Part shown: positions 1,010 to 32,482 of the stretch, one piece after another
Position numbering within the stretch: position 1 is the stretch's first letter
Layout: each line of letters starts with the position of its first letter
Assembly: GCF_003334315.1 (NCBI RefSeq)
Contig: NZ_QOWR01000008.1
DNA: 64,000 nucleotides
DNA from: Escherichia coli
GTDB lineage: Bacteria; Pseudomonadota; Gammaproteobacteria; Enterobacterales; Enterobacteriaceae
Direction: 5' to 3' (one strand)
Position numbers and translations under genes: made by a program
Notes under the pieces: generated by a model
Databases searched by the model: none
What the model saw: the letters and a program-made list of their open reading frames with translations, nothing else
What the model was told of the DNA's origin: nothing

Positions 1010-1096
1010 TGGTACCCGGAGCGGGACTTGAACCCGCACAGCGCGAACGCCGAGGGATTTTAAATCCCTTGTGTCTACCGATTCCACCATCCGGGC
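1010..1096 (-). tRNA. leuZ: tRNA-Leu (anticodon UAA), 87 nt
   Basis: Reverse complement reads GCCCGGATGGTGGAATCGGTAG...GGTTCAAGTCCCGCTCCGGGTACCA with long variable arm; anticodon loop carries UAA. Confidence 0.9.
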
Positions 1097-1108
1097 TCGG
1101 GAAGAAAG

Positions 1109-1182
1109 TGGAGGCGCGTTCCGGAGTCGAACCGGACTAGACGGATTTGCAATCCGCTACATAACCGCTTTGTTAACGCGCC
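1109..1182 (-). tRNA. cysT: tRNA-Cys (anticodon GCA), 74 nt
   Basis: Reverse complement reads GGCGCGTTAACAAAGCGGTTATGTAGCGGATTGCAAATCCG...CTCCA; anticodon GCA. Confidence 0.9.
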
Positions 1183-1236
1183 AAATTCTTCAGGCCTTTC
1201 AGCCAGACATCCGCTTGAGGCCGATGTCTTTTAAAC

Positions 1237-1312
<76 letters not shown>

Positions 1313-9666: not shown

Positions 9667-10218
9667 TTAATATATATCAGAAGCAGGCAGGCTGGAGGAT
9701 TTCTGCACAAGTCCGGTACAGGTTTGGCGCTGATAGTGTTGATACTTCCGTAACGCGATGCGGTAATTGTTGGTGCTGGTGGTGGGCAGCCACGGGGCGA
9801 GGATTTCATCAAGGAAACCGTCCTGCAGCTGATCGAGGGAAATATTTTGCTCGTGTAGATGATTCCCCAAACGGCGCAGACGAACGACATATTCACGCAC
9901 CGTACCTGGGCTCATTTCAGTTTGCTCAAAAAGAAATTGCTTAAAGCCGATAATATCGAAAAAATCACTCTGCGTTTTGCAATGTAAATCACCGCAAAAT
10001 CGGCACAATGCCGCCCATGATTTTTGTTCCGTTTGCCAGCCCTTTTCATCAAGCAGCGTGTCCAGGCGGGAAATCTCGATTTTATTCACTATTTTGCCGT
10101 CGCGAACGAGGGTAATGCGATCGAGTAATTTACGGCAATGCGCGCAATGGGTCTGGCTGTGTTTAAAGTCTTTAAGATAGCGGCTTAATGGCCGTCTTTT
10201 CAGGTGCTGCACCATCAT
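9667..10218 (-). CDS. fliZ: Flagellar/curli regulatory protein FliZ
   Basis: Trimmed to MMVQHLKRRPLSRYLKDFKHSQTHCAHC... (183 aa); immediately downstream of fliA on the minus strand. Confidence 0.9.
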   Translation of the reverse strand: MMVQHLKRRPLSRYLKDFKHSQTHCAHCRKLLDRITLVRDGKIVNKIEISRLDTLLDEKGWQTEQKSWAALCRFCGDLHCKTQSDFFDIIGFKQFLFEQTEMSPGTVREYVVRLRRLGNHLHEQNISLDQLQDGFLDEILAPWLPTTSTNNYRIALRKYQHYQRQTCTGLVQKSSSLPASDIY

Positions 10219-10263
10219 TAAGAACTCCTGGTAGTCAAAGTTAAAGTGCGGCATTTACTGACG

Positions 10264-10983
10264 TTATAACTTACCCAGTTTAGTGCGTAACCGTTTAATA
10301 GCCTGGCTGTGTAACTGACTGACCCGCGATTCCCCGACCTCCAGCACTGCACCAATCTCTTTGAGATTCAGCTCTTCCTGGTAATAGAGGGTTAATACCA
10401 GTTTTTCGCGCTCCGGCAACGTTTCGATGGCTTCCATCACCCGCTGGCGCAGATTATTGTCCAGCAGTTGTTGTAGCGGGTTTTCTCGCTGATGATCATC
10501 AGTAACCAGTTCGATGCTATCGCCGTGCTCTTCGCGCCACTCATCGTAGGAGAAGAGCTGGCTGTTATTGGTGTCGAGCAACATTTGGCGATAATCGGCA
10601 ATATCGATCCCTAAACGTTCCGCTACCTCAGTTTCCGTGGCGTTGCGGCCAAGTTCCTGCTCCAGTTGCCCTATTGCCTGTGCCACTTCACGCGCGTTGC
10701 GTCGCACGCTGCGCGGCACCCAGTCACGGCTGCGAAGTTCATCCAGCATAGCGCCACGGATACGCTGCACTGCGTAAGTTGTAAATGCCGTTCCTTGTAG
10801 GGCGTCATAGCGTTCGACGGCATTAAGTAACCCAATGCCGCCCGCCTGTAGCAGATCGTCAAGTTCCACGCTCGCGGGCAGTCGAACCTGCAGGCGCAAT
10901 GCTTCGTGACGCACCAGCGGGACATAACGCTGCCACAGCGAGTGTTTATCCATTACACCTTCAGCGGTATAGAGTGAATTCAC
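10264..10983 (-). CDS. fliA: Flagellar sigma factor sigma-28 (FliA)
   Basis: 239-aa ORF with sigma-70 family regions 2 and 4 (...YDALQGTAFTTYAVQRIRGAMLDELR..., ...LNLKEIGAVLEVGESRVSQLHSQAIKRLR). Confidence 0.95.
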   Translation of the reverse strand: MNSLYTAEGVMDKHSLWQRYVPLVRHEALRLQVRLPASVELDDLLQAGGIGLLNAVERYDALQGTAFTTYAVQRIRGAMLDELRSRDWVPRSVRRNAREVAQAIGQLEQELGRNATETEVAERLGIDIADYRQMLLDTNNSQLFSYDEWREEHGDSIELVTDDHQRENPLQQLLDNNLRQRVMEAIETLPEREKLVLTLYYQEELNLKEIGAVLEVGESRVSQLHSQAIKRLRTKLGKL

Positions 10984-11100
10984 GATAAACAGCCCTGCGT
11001 TATATGAGTTATCGGCATGATTATCCGTTTCTGCAGGGTTTTTAATCGGACGATTAGTGGGTGAAATGAGGGGTTATTTGGGGGTTACCGGTAAATTGCG
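10984..11100 (-). promoter_or_regulatory. fliA promoter region (expected flagellar class II/III control); includes a GCCGATAA sigma-28 -10-like element at 11009-11016
   Basis: Minus-strand GCCGATAA immediately upstream of fliA; no TAAA at the canonical 15-nt spacing, so the full promoter architecture is not resolved from sequence. Confidence 0.35.
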
Positions 11101-11103
11101 GGC

Positions 11104-11129
11104 AGAAAAAACCCCGCCGTTGGCGGGGA
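11104..11129 (-). terminator. fliC rho-independent terminator
   Basis: Minus strand reads ccccgcc-aacg-gcgggg hairpin followed by UUUUUUCU; lies downstream of the fliC stop and REP elements. Confidence 0.55.
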
Positions 11130-11160
11130 AGCACGTTGCTGACAAATTACCATTCATGTT

Positions 11161-11259
11161 GCCGGATGCGGCGTAACGCCTTATCCGGCCTACAAAAATC
11201 TGCAAATTCAATAAATTGCAATTCACCTTGTAGGCCTGATAAGCACAGCGCACCAGGCA
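11161..11259. repeat. REP/BIME element pair in the fliC 3' UTR
   Basis: gccggatgcggcgtaacgccttatccggcctaca and inverted copy tgtaggcctgataagcacagcgcaccaggc; canonical REP consensus. Confidence 0.6.
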
Positions 11260-11301
11260 ATTTGGCGTTGCCGTCAGTCTCAGTTAATCAGGTTACGACG
11301 A

Positions 11302-12612
11302 TTAACCCTGCAGCAGAGACAGAACCTGCTGCGGTACCTGGTTGGCTTTTGCCAGTACGGAGTTACCGGCCTGCTGGATAATCTGCGCTTTCGACATGTT
11401 GGACACTTCGGTCGCATAGTCGGCGTCCTGAATACGGGACTGCGCTTCAGACAGGTTGGTAGTGGTGTTGTTCAGGTTGGTGACTGCGGAATCCAGACGG
11501 TTTTGCACCGCACCGAGGGAGGAGCGGAAAGTATCAACCTGTGCAATCGCTTTGTCTAAAAGTGCCAGTGGATCAGCAGAAGAAGCCCCTGAGAACTGTG
11601 CAGTCGGTTTTGCTGTTGATAATTCAACAACAACTTTATTATCTGTTGCTTTTGCCGCAGTATTATCATCAAGTGCCTTTGAAACCGTTGTAGCGTAGTT
11701 TTTACCTTGGAATGTTACATATCCCGCAGCCGAGCCGTCAGAGTCAGCGGCAACTTTAATCAGTTGATCTTTCTGAGTAGCCGCAGTCGTTAGTCCATTA
11801 TCGGTGTCTGTGTATTCGACATCGGCTTTATTCAACGTGACTTTGCCGTCTGTATGATTAATCGACGCGGAGTAGAAATCATTGCCGGATTGAACGACGA
11901 ACTGTGATGTAGCAGCCCCTTTCGCATCCAGAGTGTTGTGTAACGTCAGGCTAGAAACATCGACTGTTTTACCTGTCGCAGTAGTCAGATCTTTCGCAAC
12001 AGCAGTGAAATCAACACCAACAGGTTTTGCCCCGGCGGCACCGGTAATTTGAGTAATGGAATCACTAACGTTAAGTGACTGACCCGAAACGGAGAAACCG
12101 TTCAGTCCTAATGTAGAAGAGTCAATCTTCTGCAAATCAATGCTAATAGTCTGCCCATCATTCGCGCCAACCTGAATCTTCATCGAACCATCTTTCGCCA
12201 GCACATTCACGCCGTTGAACTGGGTCTGACCGGAAACGCGATCAATTTCATCCAGACGGGATTTGATTTCGTCCTGGATTGAAGACAGGTCAGAATCAGA
12301 GTTAGTCCCGGTCGTCGCCTGAACGGTCAACTCACGCACACGCTGCAAGTTGTTGTTGATTTCAGACAGCGCGCCTTCAGTGGTCTGCGCCAGAGAGATA
12401 CCGTCGTTGGCGTTACGTGCGGCCTGAGTCAGACCTTTGATGTTAGAGGTGAAGCGGTTAGCAATCGCCTGGCCCGCAGCGTCATCTTTAGCGCTGTTAA
12501 TGCGCAGACCAGAAGAGAGGCGCTCGATAGAAGTCGACAGCGCAGACTGGTTTTTGTTGATGTTGTTCTGAGTGATCAGCGAGAGGCTGTTGGTATTAAT
12601 GACTTGTGCCAT
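11302..12612 (-). CDS. fliC: Flagellin (436 aa; conserved N/C-terminal D0/D1, divergent central domain)
   Basis: Trimmed to MAQVINTNSLSLITQNNINKNQSALS...; C-terminus ...QVPQQVLSLLQG; central third is Thr/Ser/Ala-rich with no K-12-like sequence. Confidence 0.93.
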   Translation of the reverse strand: MAQVINTNSLSLITQNNINKNQSALSTSIERLSSGLRINSAKDDAAGQAIANRFTSNIKGLTQAARNANDGISLAQTTEGALSEINNNLQRVRELTVQATTGTNSDSDLSSIQDEIKSRLDEIDRVSGQTQFNGVNVLAKDGSMKIQVGANDGQTISIDLQKIDSSTLGLNGFSVSGQSLNVSDSITQITGAAGAKPVGVDFTAVAKDLTTATGKTVDVSSLTLHNTLDAKGAATSQFVVQSGNDFYSASINHTDGKVTLNKADVEYTDTDNGLTTAATQKDQLIKVAADSDGSAAGYVTFQGKNYATTVSKALDDNTAAKATDNKVVVELSTAKPTAQFSGASSADPLALLDKAIAQVDTFRSSLGAVQNRLDSAVTNLNNTTTNLSEAQSRIQDADYATEVSNMSKAQIIQQAGNSVLAKANQVPQQVLSLLQG

Positions 12613-12688
12613 GATTTCTTTTCCTGTTTTCAAGTCTACGGTTTAAGTATTGGGCTTCCACCCTTCGGCTTCGTCGCCGTCAACCCTG

Positions 12689-12715
12689 TTATCGTCTGGT
12701 CACTCACAACCTTTA
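12689..12715 (-). promoter_or_regulatory. sigma-28 (class III) promoter of fliC
   Basis: Minus strand reads TAAA-N15-GACGATAA, one mismatch from TAAA-N15-GCCGATAA. Confidence 0.6.
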
Positions 12716-12788
12716 GAATTTTTTTCTAGCGGTCGAAATACTCCCCTTCCTCGTTGCTGTTCGTGCCATTAAGGCAAAAAATAAATCG

Positions 12789-12815
12789 TAAACTTTACCC
12801 CGCTTACGCCGATAA
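12789..12815 (+). promoter_or_regulatory. sigma-28 (class III) promoter of fliDST
   Basis: Exact TAAA-N15-GCCGATAA about 45 nt upstream of the fliD start. Confidence 0.65.
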
Positions 12816-12859
12816 CCCCGGTATTCGTTCTATACACGTCGCATGATTAAGGAAACTAT

Positions 12860-14275
12860 ATGGCTAGTATTTCAACGCTTGGGGTTGGGTCGGGGCTGAA
12901 CTTAAGCAGCATCCTTGACAGTCTGGAGGCGGCAGAAAAATCTACCCTGACGCCGATATCAAAACAGCAAAGCTCTTACACCGCGAAACTGAGCGCCTAC
13001 GGGACGCTGAAAAGTGCACTAGAGAGTTTCCAGACAGCCAACACAGCACTGAATAAAGCCGATTTATTTACCGCCACCTCAACCACCAGCAGTTCATCGG
13101 CTTTCAGCGCCACCACCACGGGCAGCGCGATTGCTGGGAAATACACCATTAGCGTTAGCCAACTGGCGCAGGCACAGACGCTGACAACAAAAAATAGTCA
13201 AAAAGACAGTAAAGCCGCCATCGCCACCAGCGATAGCGTACTAACCATCCAGCAAGGTGGCGGTAAAGATCCGGTCACGATTGATATCAGCGCGGCTAAC
13301 TCGTCACTTTCCGGCATTCGCGATGCCATTAACAACGCCAAAGCTGGTGTCAGCGCCAGTATCATCCATGTGGGTAACGGCGAGTATCGTCTGTCCATCA
13401 CTGCTAACGATACGGGCAGCGATAACGCTATGAAACTTAGCGTCAGCGGCGACAGCGCCCTGGAAAGTTTTATGGGTTACAACGGAACGTCGGGTGATAG
13501 CAGCAATGGCATGATTGAAAGCGTCACTGCGCAAAACGCCAAACTGACAGTCAATAACGTTGAGATTGAAAACAGCAGTAACACTATCAGCGACGCGCTG
13601 GAAGATATCACCCTCAACCTGAATGACGTCACCACCGGTAATCAGACACTGACCATCAGTAAAGACACATCCAAAGCTGAAAATGCGGTTAAAACGTGGG
13701 TGGATGCCTATAACTCATTGCAGGATACGTTCAGCAGCTTAACCAAATACACCGCTGTCGATGCCGGAGCAGAGAGTCAGGACTCCAGCAATGGCGCATT
13801 ACTCGGTGACTCCACACTGCGTACCATCCAGACTCAGCTTAAAACCTTGCTCGCCAATACTCACAGCAGTTCAAACTATAAAACGCTGGCACAGATTGGC
13901 ATTACCAGCGATGCCAGTACCGGCAAGCTGGAAATCGCGACCGACAAACTGCAAACGGCGCTAAAAAAAGATGCCGCTGGCATCAGTGAAATGTTTATAG
14001 GTGACGGTAAAAGTACAGGGGTAACCACCGGCATTAGTAGCAACCTAACCAGTTGGCTCTCTTCCACCGGGATAATCCAGGCCGCAAAAGATGGCGTCAG
14101 CAAAACGCTGAATAATTTGACCGACCAGTACAACGCAGCCAGTGAGCGTATCGATACCTTAATGACGCGCTATAAAGCCCAGTTCACCCAATTAGATGTG
14201 TTAATGAACTCGCTTAACTCCACCAGTAGCTATCTGACACAGCAATTCGACACCTCAAATAGCAACTCGAAATAA
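12860..14275 (+). CDS. fliD: Flagellar filament capping protein (hook-associated protein 2)
   Basis: 471-aa ORF MASISTLGVGSGLNLSSILDSLEAAEK... with conserved termini. Confidence 0.93.
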   Translation: MASISTLGVGSGLNLSSILDSLEAAEKSTLTPISKQQSSYTAKLSAYGTLKSALESFQTANTALNKADLFTATSTTSSSSAFSATTTGSAIAGKYTISVSQLAQAQTLTTKNSQKDSKAAIATSDSVLTIQQGGGKDPVTIDISAANSSLSGIRDAINNAKAGVSASIIHVGNGEYRLSITANDTGSDNAMKLSVSGDSALESFMGYNGTSGDSSNGMIESVTAQNAKLTVNNVEIENSSNTISDALEDITLNLNDVTTGNQTLTISKDTSKAENAVKTWVDAYNSLQDTFSSLTKYTAVDAGAESQDSSNGALLGDSTLRTIQTQLKTLLANTHSSSNYKTLAQIGITSDASTGKLEIATDKLQTALKKDAAGISEMFIGDGKSTGVTTGISSNLTSWLSSTGIIQAAKDGVSKTLNNLTDQYNAASERIDTLMTRYKAQFTQLDVLMNSLNSTSSYLTQQFDTSNSNSK

Positions 14276-32395: not shown

Positions 32396-32482
32396 AAATC
32401 CCGACCCTGAGGGGGTCGGGATGAAACTTGCTTAAGCAAGAAGCACTTAAAAAATTCGTTACACCAGGAAATCTGATGTGTT
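32396..32482 (-). ncRNA. dsrA: DsrA small regulatory RNA (Hfq-dependent; activates rpoS, represses hns)
   Basis: Minus strand reads AACACATCAGATTTCCTGGTGTAACGAATTTTTTAAGTGCTTCTTGCTTAAGCAAGTTTCATCCCGACCCCCTCAGGGTCGGGATTT, ending in a terminator hairpin. Confidence 0.9.

What the first reader, a model, noticed from the sequence alone, without database searches (positions are those of the whole stretch)
11104..11301. Structured fliC 3' UTR (REP pair plus terminator) as a possible source of a 3'-UTR-derived sRNA
Downstream of the fliC stop the minus strand carries two inverted REP palindromes and then a strong intrinsic terminator. Such structured 3' UTRs are known to yield stable Hfq-binding fragments, and a fliC-derived sRNA has been described in E. 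coli. The element is conserved here despite the divergent flagellin coding region.
Basis: partly seen in the sequence, partly recalled or inferred. Interest (0 to 1): 0.2.

Follow-up and report, generated by a model that had tools for sequence, protein, structure and literature searches.

The report
Known FliX small RNA after fliC
The structured stretch after the flagellin gene is this strain's copy of FliX, a small regulatory RNA already characterised in E. coli K-12 and annotated there, so the finding is real but ordinary.

Summary
Window 11104-11301 (minus strand) is the fliC 3' UTR, between the fliC stop (11304-11302) and the fliA promoter region. It holds two inverted REPs (z1 11258-11230, y 11193-11160) around a 36-nt L linker. 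Downstream lies a G+C-rich terminator (stem 11128-11112, T6).

The REP pair is a BIME-1 dispersed repeat, with at least 31 copies counted in every E. coli genome. The interval is the orthologue of K-12 fliX (b4827, 195 nt). It is 187/198 identical, and the 20-nt seed segment AAUUUGUCAGCAACGUGCUU is identical.

FliX is a sigma-28-dependent, Hfq-bound sRNA processed from the fliC mRNA. Melamed et al. 2023 (PMC10578931) showed that it represses fliC and S10-operon ribosomal protein genes. Their cloning primers place the FliX 5' end at about 11298 and the FliX-S 5' end at about 11209.

Verdict: observation confirmed, interpretation supported, already known, low interest.

One point I did not find in the papers I read. 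The roughly 157-nt block (BIME plus seed) occurs in only about 65% of 5426 complete E. coli genomes. At least 1666 genomes have a 163-164-nt fliC-fliA spacer that keeps only the terminator. FliX is therefore an accessory feature that travels with some flagellin alleles, here an H4-type allele.

The parts
12689..12715 (-). sigma-28 (class 3) promoter of fliC: TAAAGGTT-N11-GACGATAA. It drives the transcript from which FliX is cut.
   Evidence: The boxes are the same as in K-12, although the rest of the fliC-fliD spacer is only 180/265 identical.
11302..12612 (-). fliC, the parental mRNA: a 436-aa flagellin, H4-type.
   Evidence: It is 1296/1311 nt and 435/436 aa identical to fliC of an O25b:H4-ST131 strain.
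11105..11298 (-). Full-length FliX orthologue (~194 nt).
   Evidence: It aligns to K-12 fliX b4827. The 5' end is the position equivalent to cloning primer SM044. The 3' end is the terminator U-run.
11259..11298 (-). Single-copy 5' segment of FliX. It contains CUGAC, which the fold predicts to pair with GUCAG of the seed in the long form.
   Evidence: predicted pairs at columns 34-38 / 169-173; no covariation.
11230..11258 (-). z1-type REP (iREP orientation; ends in CCTAC).
   Evidence: hairpin -11.8 kcal/mol.
11194..11229 (-). L linker of the BIME-1, with an IHF-like site (ATTCAATAAATTG on the + strand). The FliX-S 5' end lies inside it.
   Evidence: Rfam ES036/CssrF hit at 34.7 bits, below the gathering score of 37.6. 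IHF consensus matched with 1 mismatch. Primer SM673 maps to 11209.
11160..11193 (-). y-type REP (starts with GTAGG).
   Evidence: It matches the first hairpin of Rfam naRNA4 almost exactly but only partly overall: 35.1 bits against a gathering score of 59.5. Hairpin energy -17.4 kcal/mol.
11105..11209 (-). FliX-S orthologue (~105 nt): y REP + seed + terminator.
   Evidence: Folds at -39.6 kcal/mol, z = -2.9.
11129..11148 (-). Seed segment AAUUUGUCAGCAACGUGCUU. The GCA triplet changed in the published M1 mutant is at 11139-11137.
   Evidence: Identical to K-12. A 41-nt segment containing it is single-copy and present in 3509/5426 genomes.
11106..11128 (-). Intrinsic terminator: 7-bp all-G-C stem, 3-nt loop, U6. 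Inferred to be the Hfq-binding 3' end.
   Evidence: Conserved in both the long and the short spacer forms.

Best explanation
The interval is this strain's fliX gene, that is, the fliC 3' UTR.

Shown in K-12 and carried over here by orthology:
- fliC is transcribed from its sigma-28 promoter and transcription stops at the intrinsic terminator.
- The mRNA is processed to a ~200-nt FliX (5' end about 4 nt after the stop codon) and a ~100-nt FliX-S.
- Both bind Hfq.
- Overexpression lowers fliC mRNA and flagellin, and lowers rplC, rpsS-rplV and rpsQ reporter fusions. Direct pairing was shown for rpsS, with compensatory mutations.

Inferred:
- The FliX-S 5' end lies in the A+U-rich L linker between the two REPs. 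The cleaving enzyme (RNase E is likely) has not been shown.
- The single-stranded seed UUUGUCAGCAACGUGCUU lies between the y REP hairpin and the terminator.
- The REP hairpins act as 5' structural caps that define and stabilise the processed species, and the terminator hairpin with its U-run is the Hfq-binding module.

The REP pair itself is an ordinary BIME-1 repeat (z1-L-y) that sits in this UTR. Only the ~40-nt 5' segment and the ~31-nt seed segment are locus-specific.
For: - Position and strand are right: the interval follows the fliC stop directly and lies upstream of fliA.
- K-12 RefSeq annotates fliX b4827 at the equivalent place.
- Identity to K-12 is 187/198, and the seed and M1 triplet are identical.
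- The published cloning primers and gBlocks map to 11298, 11209 and 11081-11060.
- The terminator is strong.
- The sigma-28 promoter boxes upstream of fliC are conserved.
- The fold is more stable than shuffles.
- Experimental evidence in K-12 covers northern blots, Hfq coIP, RIL-seq, footprinting, reporter fusions and the chromosomal M1 mutant (PMC10578931). The FliX coordinates are also listed in PMC8175672.
Against: - No expression data exist for this allele.
- There are 11 differences from K-12. Four are clustered immediately 5' of the seed (AUGAAUGGU here, AUAAAGCGC in K-12), and their effect on processing or seed accessibility is unknown.
- Rfam 15 gave no FliX match, so there is no independent model score.
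- There is no covariation support for any helix: 0 compensatory pairs among 65.
- The physiological effect in K-12 is small. The fliX-M1 mutant has slightly more flagella late in growth and no motility change.
- About 35% of E. coli genomes lack the block, so it is dispensable.
Confidence: 0.92

Rival explanations
1. The structure is mainly a generic BIME-1 that happens to lie in a 3' UTR. On the RNA it blocks 3'-to-5' exonucleases and stabilises fliC mRNA. On the DNA it binds IHF or gyrase. The sRNA fragments would then be decay intermediates with little regulatory weight in this strain. This is not exclusive of the main explanation.
For: - The 98-nt REP-L-REP core is a dispersed repeat with at least 31 counted copies per genome.
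- The L linker has an IHF-like site.
- REP roles in mRNA stabilisation and protein binding are summarised in PMC3333891.
- The chromosomal seed mutant has a weak phenotype.
- About 35% of genomes do without the block.
Against: - The seed segment is not part of the repeat: it is single-copy.
- It is invariant between K-12 and this strain although 4 of the 11 adjacent bases differ.
- In K-12, seed-dependent pairing with rpsS was shown with compensatory mutations, and FliX is enriched with Hfq.
Confidence: 0.25
2. The functionally important element is only the terminator, which insulates the very strongly transcribed fliC from the fliA promoter just downstream. The rest of the UTR would be neutral passenger sequence.
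For: - The terminator and the downstream fliA promoter region are kept in every spacer form.
- Everything between the stop codon and the terminator is replaceable (alignment A1).
- The terminator-to-fliA segment is 117/122 identical to K-12.
Against: This does not explain why the single-copy seed is identical across divergent alleles. It also does not explain the K-12 experimental data on FliX targets.
Confidence: 0.1
3. A small protein or an antisense RNA is encoded in the interval. Candidate ORFs are 11074-11253 (minus strand, 59 aa, GTG start) and 11136-11381 (plus strand, 81 aa, TTG start).
For: These ORFs appear only in the mechanical ORF list.
Against: - Both ORFs run through REP palindromes and the terminator.
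- No promoter-like site lies in 11104-11301 on either strand.
- No such gene is annotated in any of the RefSeq records inspected.
Confidence: 0.02

Closest known systems
FliX / FliX-S sRNA of E. coli K-12 (gene fliX, b4827; Melamed et al., eLife 2023, PMC10578931)
   Same: Same locus, strand and architecture. Identity is 94%, with an identical seed and the same terminator stem. The sigma-28 fliC promoter boxes are the same, and the processing-site sequences are the same apart from one base each.
   Different: - 11 substitutions or indels, including a 4-base haplotype difference just 5' of the seed, a 1-nt shorter y REP loop, a terminator loop of AAC instead of ACC, and U6 instead of U7.
- The parental flagellin is H4-type, not H48.
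- No experimental data exist for this allele.
BIME-1 / RIP (RIB) elements: z1 REP + L linker with IHF site + y REP (definition in PMC3333891)
   Same: z1 and y REPs in inverted orientation, GTAG/CTAC feet, a conserved long L linker with an IHF-like site, a single BIME at the locus, and many copies per genome.
   Different: This copy is transcribed as part of a very abundant mRNA, and it supplies the hairpins and the processing site of an sRNA.
Other 3'-UTR-derived Hfq sRNAs processed from mRNAs (FlgO from flgL, per PMC10578931; MalH, NarS and GadF, listed in PMC8175672; CpxQ and SroC from my own knowledge)
   Same: They share the parental terminator as the Hfq-binding 3' end and are released by endonucleolytic processing. 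FliX acts in trans, partly on its own pathway.
   Different: FliX carries a REP/BIME inside the sRNA body, and its documented target sites lie inside coding sequences.
naRNA4 (Rfam RF02564), the REP325-derived nucleoid-associated RNA
   Same: The y REP hairpin is nearly identical to the first hairpin of the model (positions 1-34).
   Different: The second hairpin is absent, and the score of 35.1 bits is below the gathering score of 59.5. The resemblance is only shared REP ancestry.

Membership tests
FliX sRNA (fliX, b4827) | Lies in the 3' UTR of fliC on the same strand, starting a few nt after the stop codon and ending at the fliC terminator. | tested here: met
   The stop is at 11304-11302, the FliX-equivalent 5' end at 11298 and the U-run at 11111-11106.
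FliX sRNA (fliX, b4827) | Sequence homology to the K-12 fliX gene over its whole length. | tested here: met
   187/198 identical with two 1-nt gaps.
FliX sRNA (fliX, b4827) | Seed sequence containing the GCA triplet mutated in FliX-M1 (UUUGUCAGCAACGUGCUU). | tested here: met
   The published gBlock and primer sequences are identical to window 11148-11129.
FliX sRNA (fliX, b4827) | Rho-independent terminator hairpin plus U-run at the 3' end (typical Hfq-binding module). | tested here: met
   7 G-C pairs, T6; -12.2 kcal/mol.
FliX sRNA (fliX, b4827) | Sigma-28-dependent synthesis through the fliC promoter. | tested here: inconclusive
   The promoter boxes TAAAGGTT-N11-GACGATAA are present at 12715-12689 and identical to K-12. 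Expression itself cannot be tested with these tools.
FliX sRNA (fliX, b4827) | Stable ~200-nt and ~100-nt processed species that co-purify with Hfq. | not testable with these tools
   Shown only for K-12 (PMC10578931).
FliX sRNA (fliX, b4827) | Base pairing with sites inside the rplC, rpsS, rpsQ and fliC coding sequences. | not tested
   The S10 operon is outside the window. The seed-versus-fliC duplex prediction (about -15 kcal/mol in both strains, at different sites) was not discriminating.
BIME-1 (RIP/RIB) repeat | One z1 REP and one y REP in inverted orientation with GTAG/CTAC feet. | tested here: met
   Definition from PMC3333891.
BIME-1 (RIP/RIB) repeat | Long conserved L linker, frequently with an IHF site. 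| tested here: met
   36-nt linker. The Rfam ES036 model of this motif aligns end to end at 34.7 bits, just under its gathering score. ATTCAATAAATTG matches WATCAANNNNTTR with 1 mismatch. IHF binding itself was not tested.
BIME-1 (RIP/RIB) repeat | Dispersed in many copies in the genome. | tested here: met
naRNA4 (RF02564) | Score at or above the Rfam gathering threshold, with both hairpins present. | tested here: not met
   35.1 bits against 59.5. The central 42 model positions are replaced by 16 nt.

The most novel reading that the evidence does not exclude
FliX may be an accessory module that travels with part of the recombining flagellin (H-antigen) cassette, not a core E. coli sRNA.

The ~157-nt block (5' segment + BIME-1 + seed) is present in about 65% of complete genomes. 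Carriers include H4/ST131, H48/K-12, O157:H7 and Nissle 1917. At least 31% of genomes have 20-23 nt there instead, including O111:H8 and strain 042.

If this reading is right, exchanging the flagellin allele would also switch on or off a feedback repressor of flagellin and S10-operon ribosomal protein genes. The FliX-less lineages would then be natural knock-outs.

The presence/absence pattern is observed directly. That it has regulatory consequences, and that it is unreported, are not established.
Probability: 0.4. Interest if true: 0.35.

Novelty: already known. Interest (0 to 1): 0.1.

Why it matters
The finding adds little beyond correct annotation. PGAP leaves this interval unannotated in all non-K-12 records inspected, and Rfam 15 gave no FliX match, so the sRNA is invisible in routine annotation. 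The useful by-product is the population picture. FliX is present with some flagellin alleles and absent with others. This gives natural controls for testing what the sRNA does for flagellar and ribosomal-protein feedback in clinically important lineages.

Tried and rejected
- **Rfam.** The permissive scan of 10000-13500 and the gathering-threshold scan of the whole window gave no FliX family. They gave only sub-threshold REP-derived hits (naRNA4, ES036), which I rejected as memberships.
- **Outgroup search.** It therefore says nothing about other species or about gain versus loss of the block. Seed variants such as Nissle's U-to-C show the exact pattern was too strict.
- **Target prediction.** RNAduplex of FliX-S or the seed against the fliC 5' region gave about -15 kcal/mol for the seed, at different sites in the two strains. 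That is not discriminating, so I did not use it.
- **Covariation.** The 7-sequence alignment gave 0 compensatory pairs. It is uninformative within one species.
- **A wrong guess, corrected.** I first assumed the short U14A-type spacer belonged to H4/ST131. Searches showed the opposite: an O25b:H4-ST131 strain carries the long FliX form, and its flagellin is 435/436 aa identical to the one in the window.
- **Small-ORF and antisense readings.** Rejected: there is no promoter-like site, and the ORFs run through the palindromes.

Full report
**Observation**

On the minus strand, the fliC ORF ends with TAA at 11304-11302. The true start is the ATG at 12612, giving a 436-aa flagellin. fliA starts with GTG at 10983. 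The reported interval 11104-11301 is therefore exactly the fliC 3' UTR down to the end of the terminator tail.

Its layout (coordinates):
- a ~40-nt single-copy segment, 11298-11259;
- a z1-type REP, 11258-11230;
- an A+T-rich 36-nt linker, 11229-11194;
- a y-type REP, 11193-11160;
- an 11-nt variable stretch, 11159-11149;
- the 20-nt segment AATTTGTCAGCAACGTGCTT, 11148-11129;
- the hairpin CCCCGCCAACGGCGGGG, 11128-11112;
- T6, 11111-11106.

The REPs are inverted relative to each other, with 16-nt arms that are 94% complementary. The REP tail motif is found on both strands here, 3 times in the window against 0.02 expected. The terminator has 7 G-C pairs and a 3-nt loop and folds at -12.2 kcal/mol. 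The whole UTR folds at -70.7 kcal/mol (z = -2.8 against shuffles), and the 3' 106 nt at -39.6 kcal/mol (z = -2.9).

**What it is**

The K-12 MG1655 RefSeq record annotates an ncRNA at the equivalent place: fliX (b4827), 'small RNA FliX', at 2001912-2002106, 195 nt, beginning 4 nt after the fliC stop. The window interval is 187/198 identical to it.

Melamed et al. (eLife 2023, PMC10578931) describe FliX as follows:
- It is processed from the fliC mRNA.
- It is seen as a ~200-nt band, plus a ~100-nt FliX-S that 'includes one of the REP sequences downstream of fliC'.
- It is enriched by Hfq co-immunoprecipitation.
- When overexpressed, it lowers fliC mRNA, flagellin, flagella number and rplC, rpsS-rplV and rpsQ fusions.
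- Direct pairing to rpsS was shown with compensatory mutations.

Their oligonucleotides map onto the window:
- The FliX cloning primer SM044 maps to 11298.
- The FliX-S primer SM673 maps to 11209, inside the linker.
- The reverse primer maps to 11081-11060.
- The M1 seed mutation (GCA to CGT) falls at 11139-11137, inside a segment that is identical in the two strains.

The FliX coordinates are also listed in PMC8175672. The sigma-28 promoter boxes of fliC (TAAAGGTT-N11-GACGATAA, 12715-12689) are the same as in K-12. Rfam 15 gave no match to a FliX family at this locus. It gave only sub-threshold matches to two REP-derived families, naRNA4 at 35.1 bits (gathering score 59.5) and ES036 at 34.7 bits (gathering score 37.6). 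This may be why the RefSeq records other than K-12 show no feature here.

**The REP pair**

By the definition in PMC3333891, a BIME-1 is a single z1 plus y REP pair separated by a conserved long L linker that often carries an IHF site. The element here fits:
- z1 and y REPs with CTAC/GTAG feet;
- a 36-nt linker that the Rfam ES036 model aligns end to end;
- ATTCAATAAATTG, which matches the IHF consensus with one mismatch.

The 98-nt core alone hits every one of 5426 complete E. coli genomes. By contrast, a 41-nt segment holding the seed is single-copy. So the middle of the 'conserved element' is a common repeat. Only the 5' ~40 nt and the seed segment are specific to the locus.

**Mechanism**

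Shown in K-12 and transferred here by orthology:
- sigma-28 transcription of fliC;
- processing to FliX and FliX-S;
- Hfq binding;
- repression of fliC and S10-operon genes when FliX is overexpressed, with seed-dependent pairing shown for rpsS.

Inferred:
- Termination occurs at the hairpin plus U-run.
- The REP hairpins serve as structured 5' bodies that delimit and stabilise the two species.
- FliX-S arises by cleavage in the single-stranded A+U-rich linker loop, probably by RNase E.
- In the long form, CUGAC at about 11268-11264 may pair with GUCAG of the seed. This is a predicted pairing with no covariation support.

**Conservation and population picture**

Against K-12:

| Region | Identity |
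|---|---|
| fliC 3' UTR | 94.4% (187/198) |
| fliC, first 510 nt | 86.9% (443/510) |
| fliC, last 270 nt | 89.6% (242/270) |
| fliC central domain | unalignable (531 vs 717 nt) |
| fliA | 716/720 |

The flagellin here is H4-type. It is 435/436 aa identical to that of an O25b:H4-ST131 strain, which also has the same 318-nt spacer (313/318 identical).

Across 5426 complete E. coli genomes:
- 5380 contain the fliA-proximal flank, but only 3502 contain the full 601-nt region.
- 3503 contain at least 80% of the 198-nt UTR.
- 3509 contain the seed segment, essentially always once.

Five genomes of the remaining class were fetched and aligned. All have a 163-164-nt (one 154-nt) fliC-fliA spacer in which 20-23 nt follow the stop codon and lead straight into the same terminator. 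The 5' segment, the BIME-1 and the seed are all missing.

Two junction types account for 865 genomes (flagellin ending LSLLR*, for example O111:H8 and strain 042) and 801 genomes (U14A type). FliX is thus linked to particular flagellin alleles and is absent from about a third of sequenced strains.

Among carriers there are two haplotypes just 5' of the seed: AUGAAUGGU here and in Nissle 1917, and AUAAAGCGC in K-12 and O157:H7. Occasional seed variants also occur (Nissle U-to-C; strain 504237 U-to-C next to the terminator). [quoted passage not shown] I could not establish that it is unreported.

**Rivals**

- The BIME may act mainly as a generic mRNA stabiliser or IHF site. This is compatible with the main reading and is supported by the weak phenotype of the chromosomal seed mutant. 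It does not explain the invariant single-copy seed.
- Only the terminator may matter, as an insulator before the fliA promoter. This fits the short forms but not the K-12 target data.
- A small ORF or an antisense gene has no support.

**What failed**

- The single genome-contig scan with an exact 22-mer returned only a contaminated MAG contig. Distribution outside E. coli and the direction of change (gain or loss) therefore remain open.
- Duplex prediction against fliC was not discriminating.
- The alignment shows no covariation.

**Verdict**

The element is the already known FliX sRNA built on an ordinary BIME-1. It is of low interest. The presence/absence polymorphism is the only mildly new point.

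Noticed in passing
window 11129-11298; loci L003-L007 (alignment A1): The FliX block (5' segment + BIME-1 + seed, about 157 nt) is a presence/absence polymorphism. The seed is present once in 3509/5426 complete E. coli genomes. At least 1666 genomes have a 163-164-nt fliC-fliA spacer with only the terminator.
   Followed up: partly
window 11149-11159; alignment A2: Two linked haplotypes lie immediately 5' of the seed: ATGAATGGT (window, Nissle 1917) and ATAAAGCGC (K-12, O157:H7, EC77). Seed-adjacent variants also occur in Nissle 1917 (TTTGCCAGC) and strain 504237 (GTGCTC). Their effect on FliX is unknown.
   Followed up: no
L008 (JAIJJM010000281.1, 3920 bp): A contig of a MAG labelled 'Collinsella sp.' carries typical E. 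coli fliC-fliX-fliA sequence. This is almost certainly bin contamination.
   Followed up: no
L006 (NZ_CP074866.1, strain 2013C_3653), around locus positions 880-900: This short-spacer variant has a 10-nt deletion that cuts the terminator T-run to TTT. That might weaken termination and allow read-through from fliC into fliA.
   Followed up: no
window 12613-12859: The fliC-fliD spacer (fliC promoter and 5' UTR) is only 180/265 identical to K-12, although the sigma-28 boxes are kept. The flagellin allele exchange therefore seems to include the 5' UTR, where the published Hfq/sRNA contacts on fliC begin.
   Followed up: no
L004 (NZ_CP042934.2, E. coli 042): fliA is annotated as a frameshifted pseudogene in this assembly of strain 042. 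This could be a sequencing error or a non-motile laboratory variant.
   Followed up: no
window 32396-32482 (-), 40847-40936 (+), 1013-1312 (-), 50691-50777 (-), 51769-51841 (+): Rfam gathering-level hits elsewhere in the window: DsrA, RseX and five tRNAs. A third REP-like tail lies at 48393-48406.
   Followed up: no
window 11230-11258: The z1 REP of this strain has two substitutions relative to the six other long-form sequences aligned (at 11253 and 11245). In the consensus fold each turns a Watson-Crick pair into G-U.
   Followed up: no
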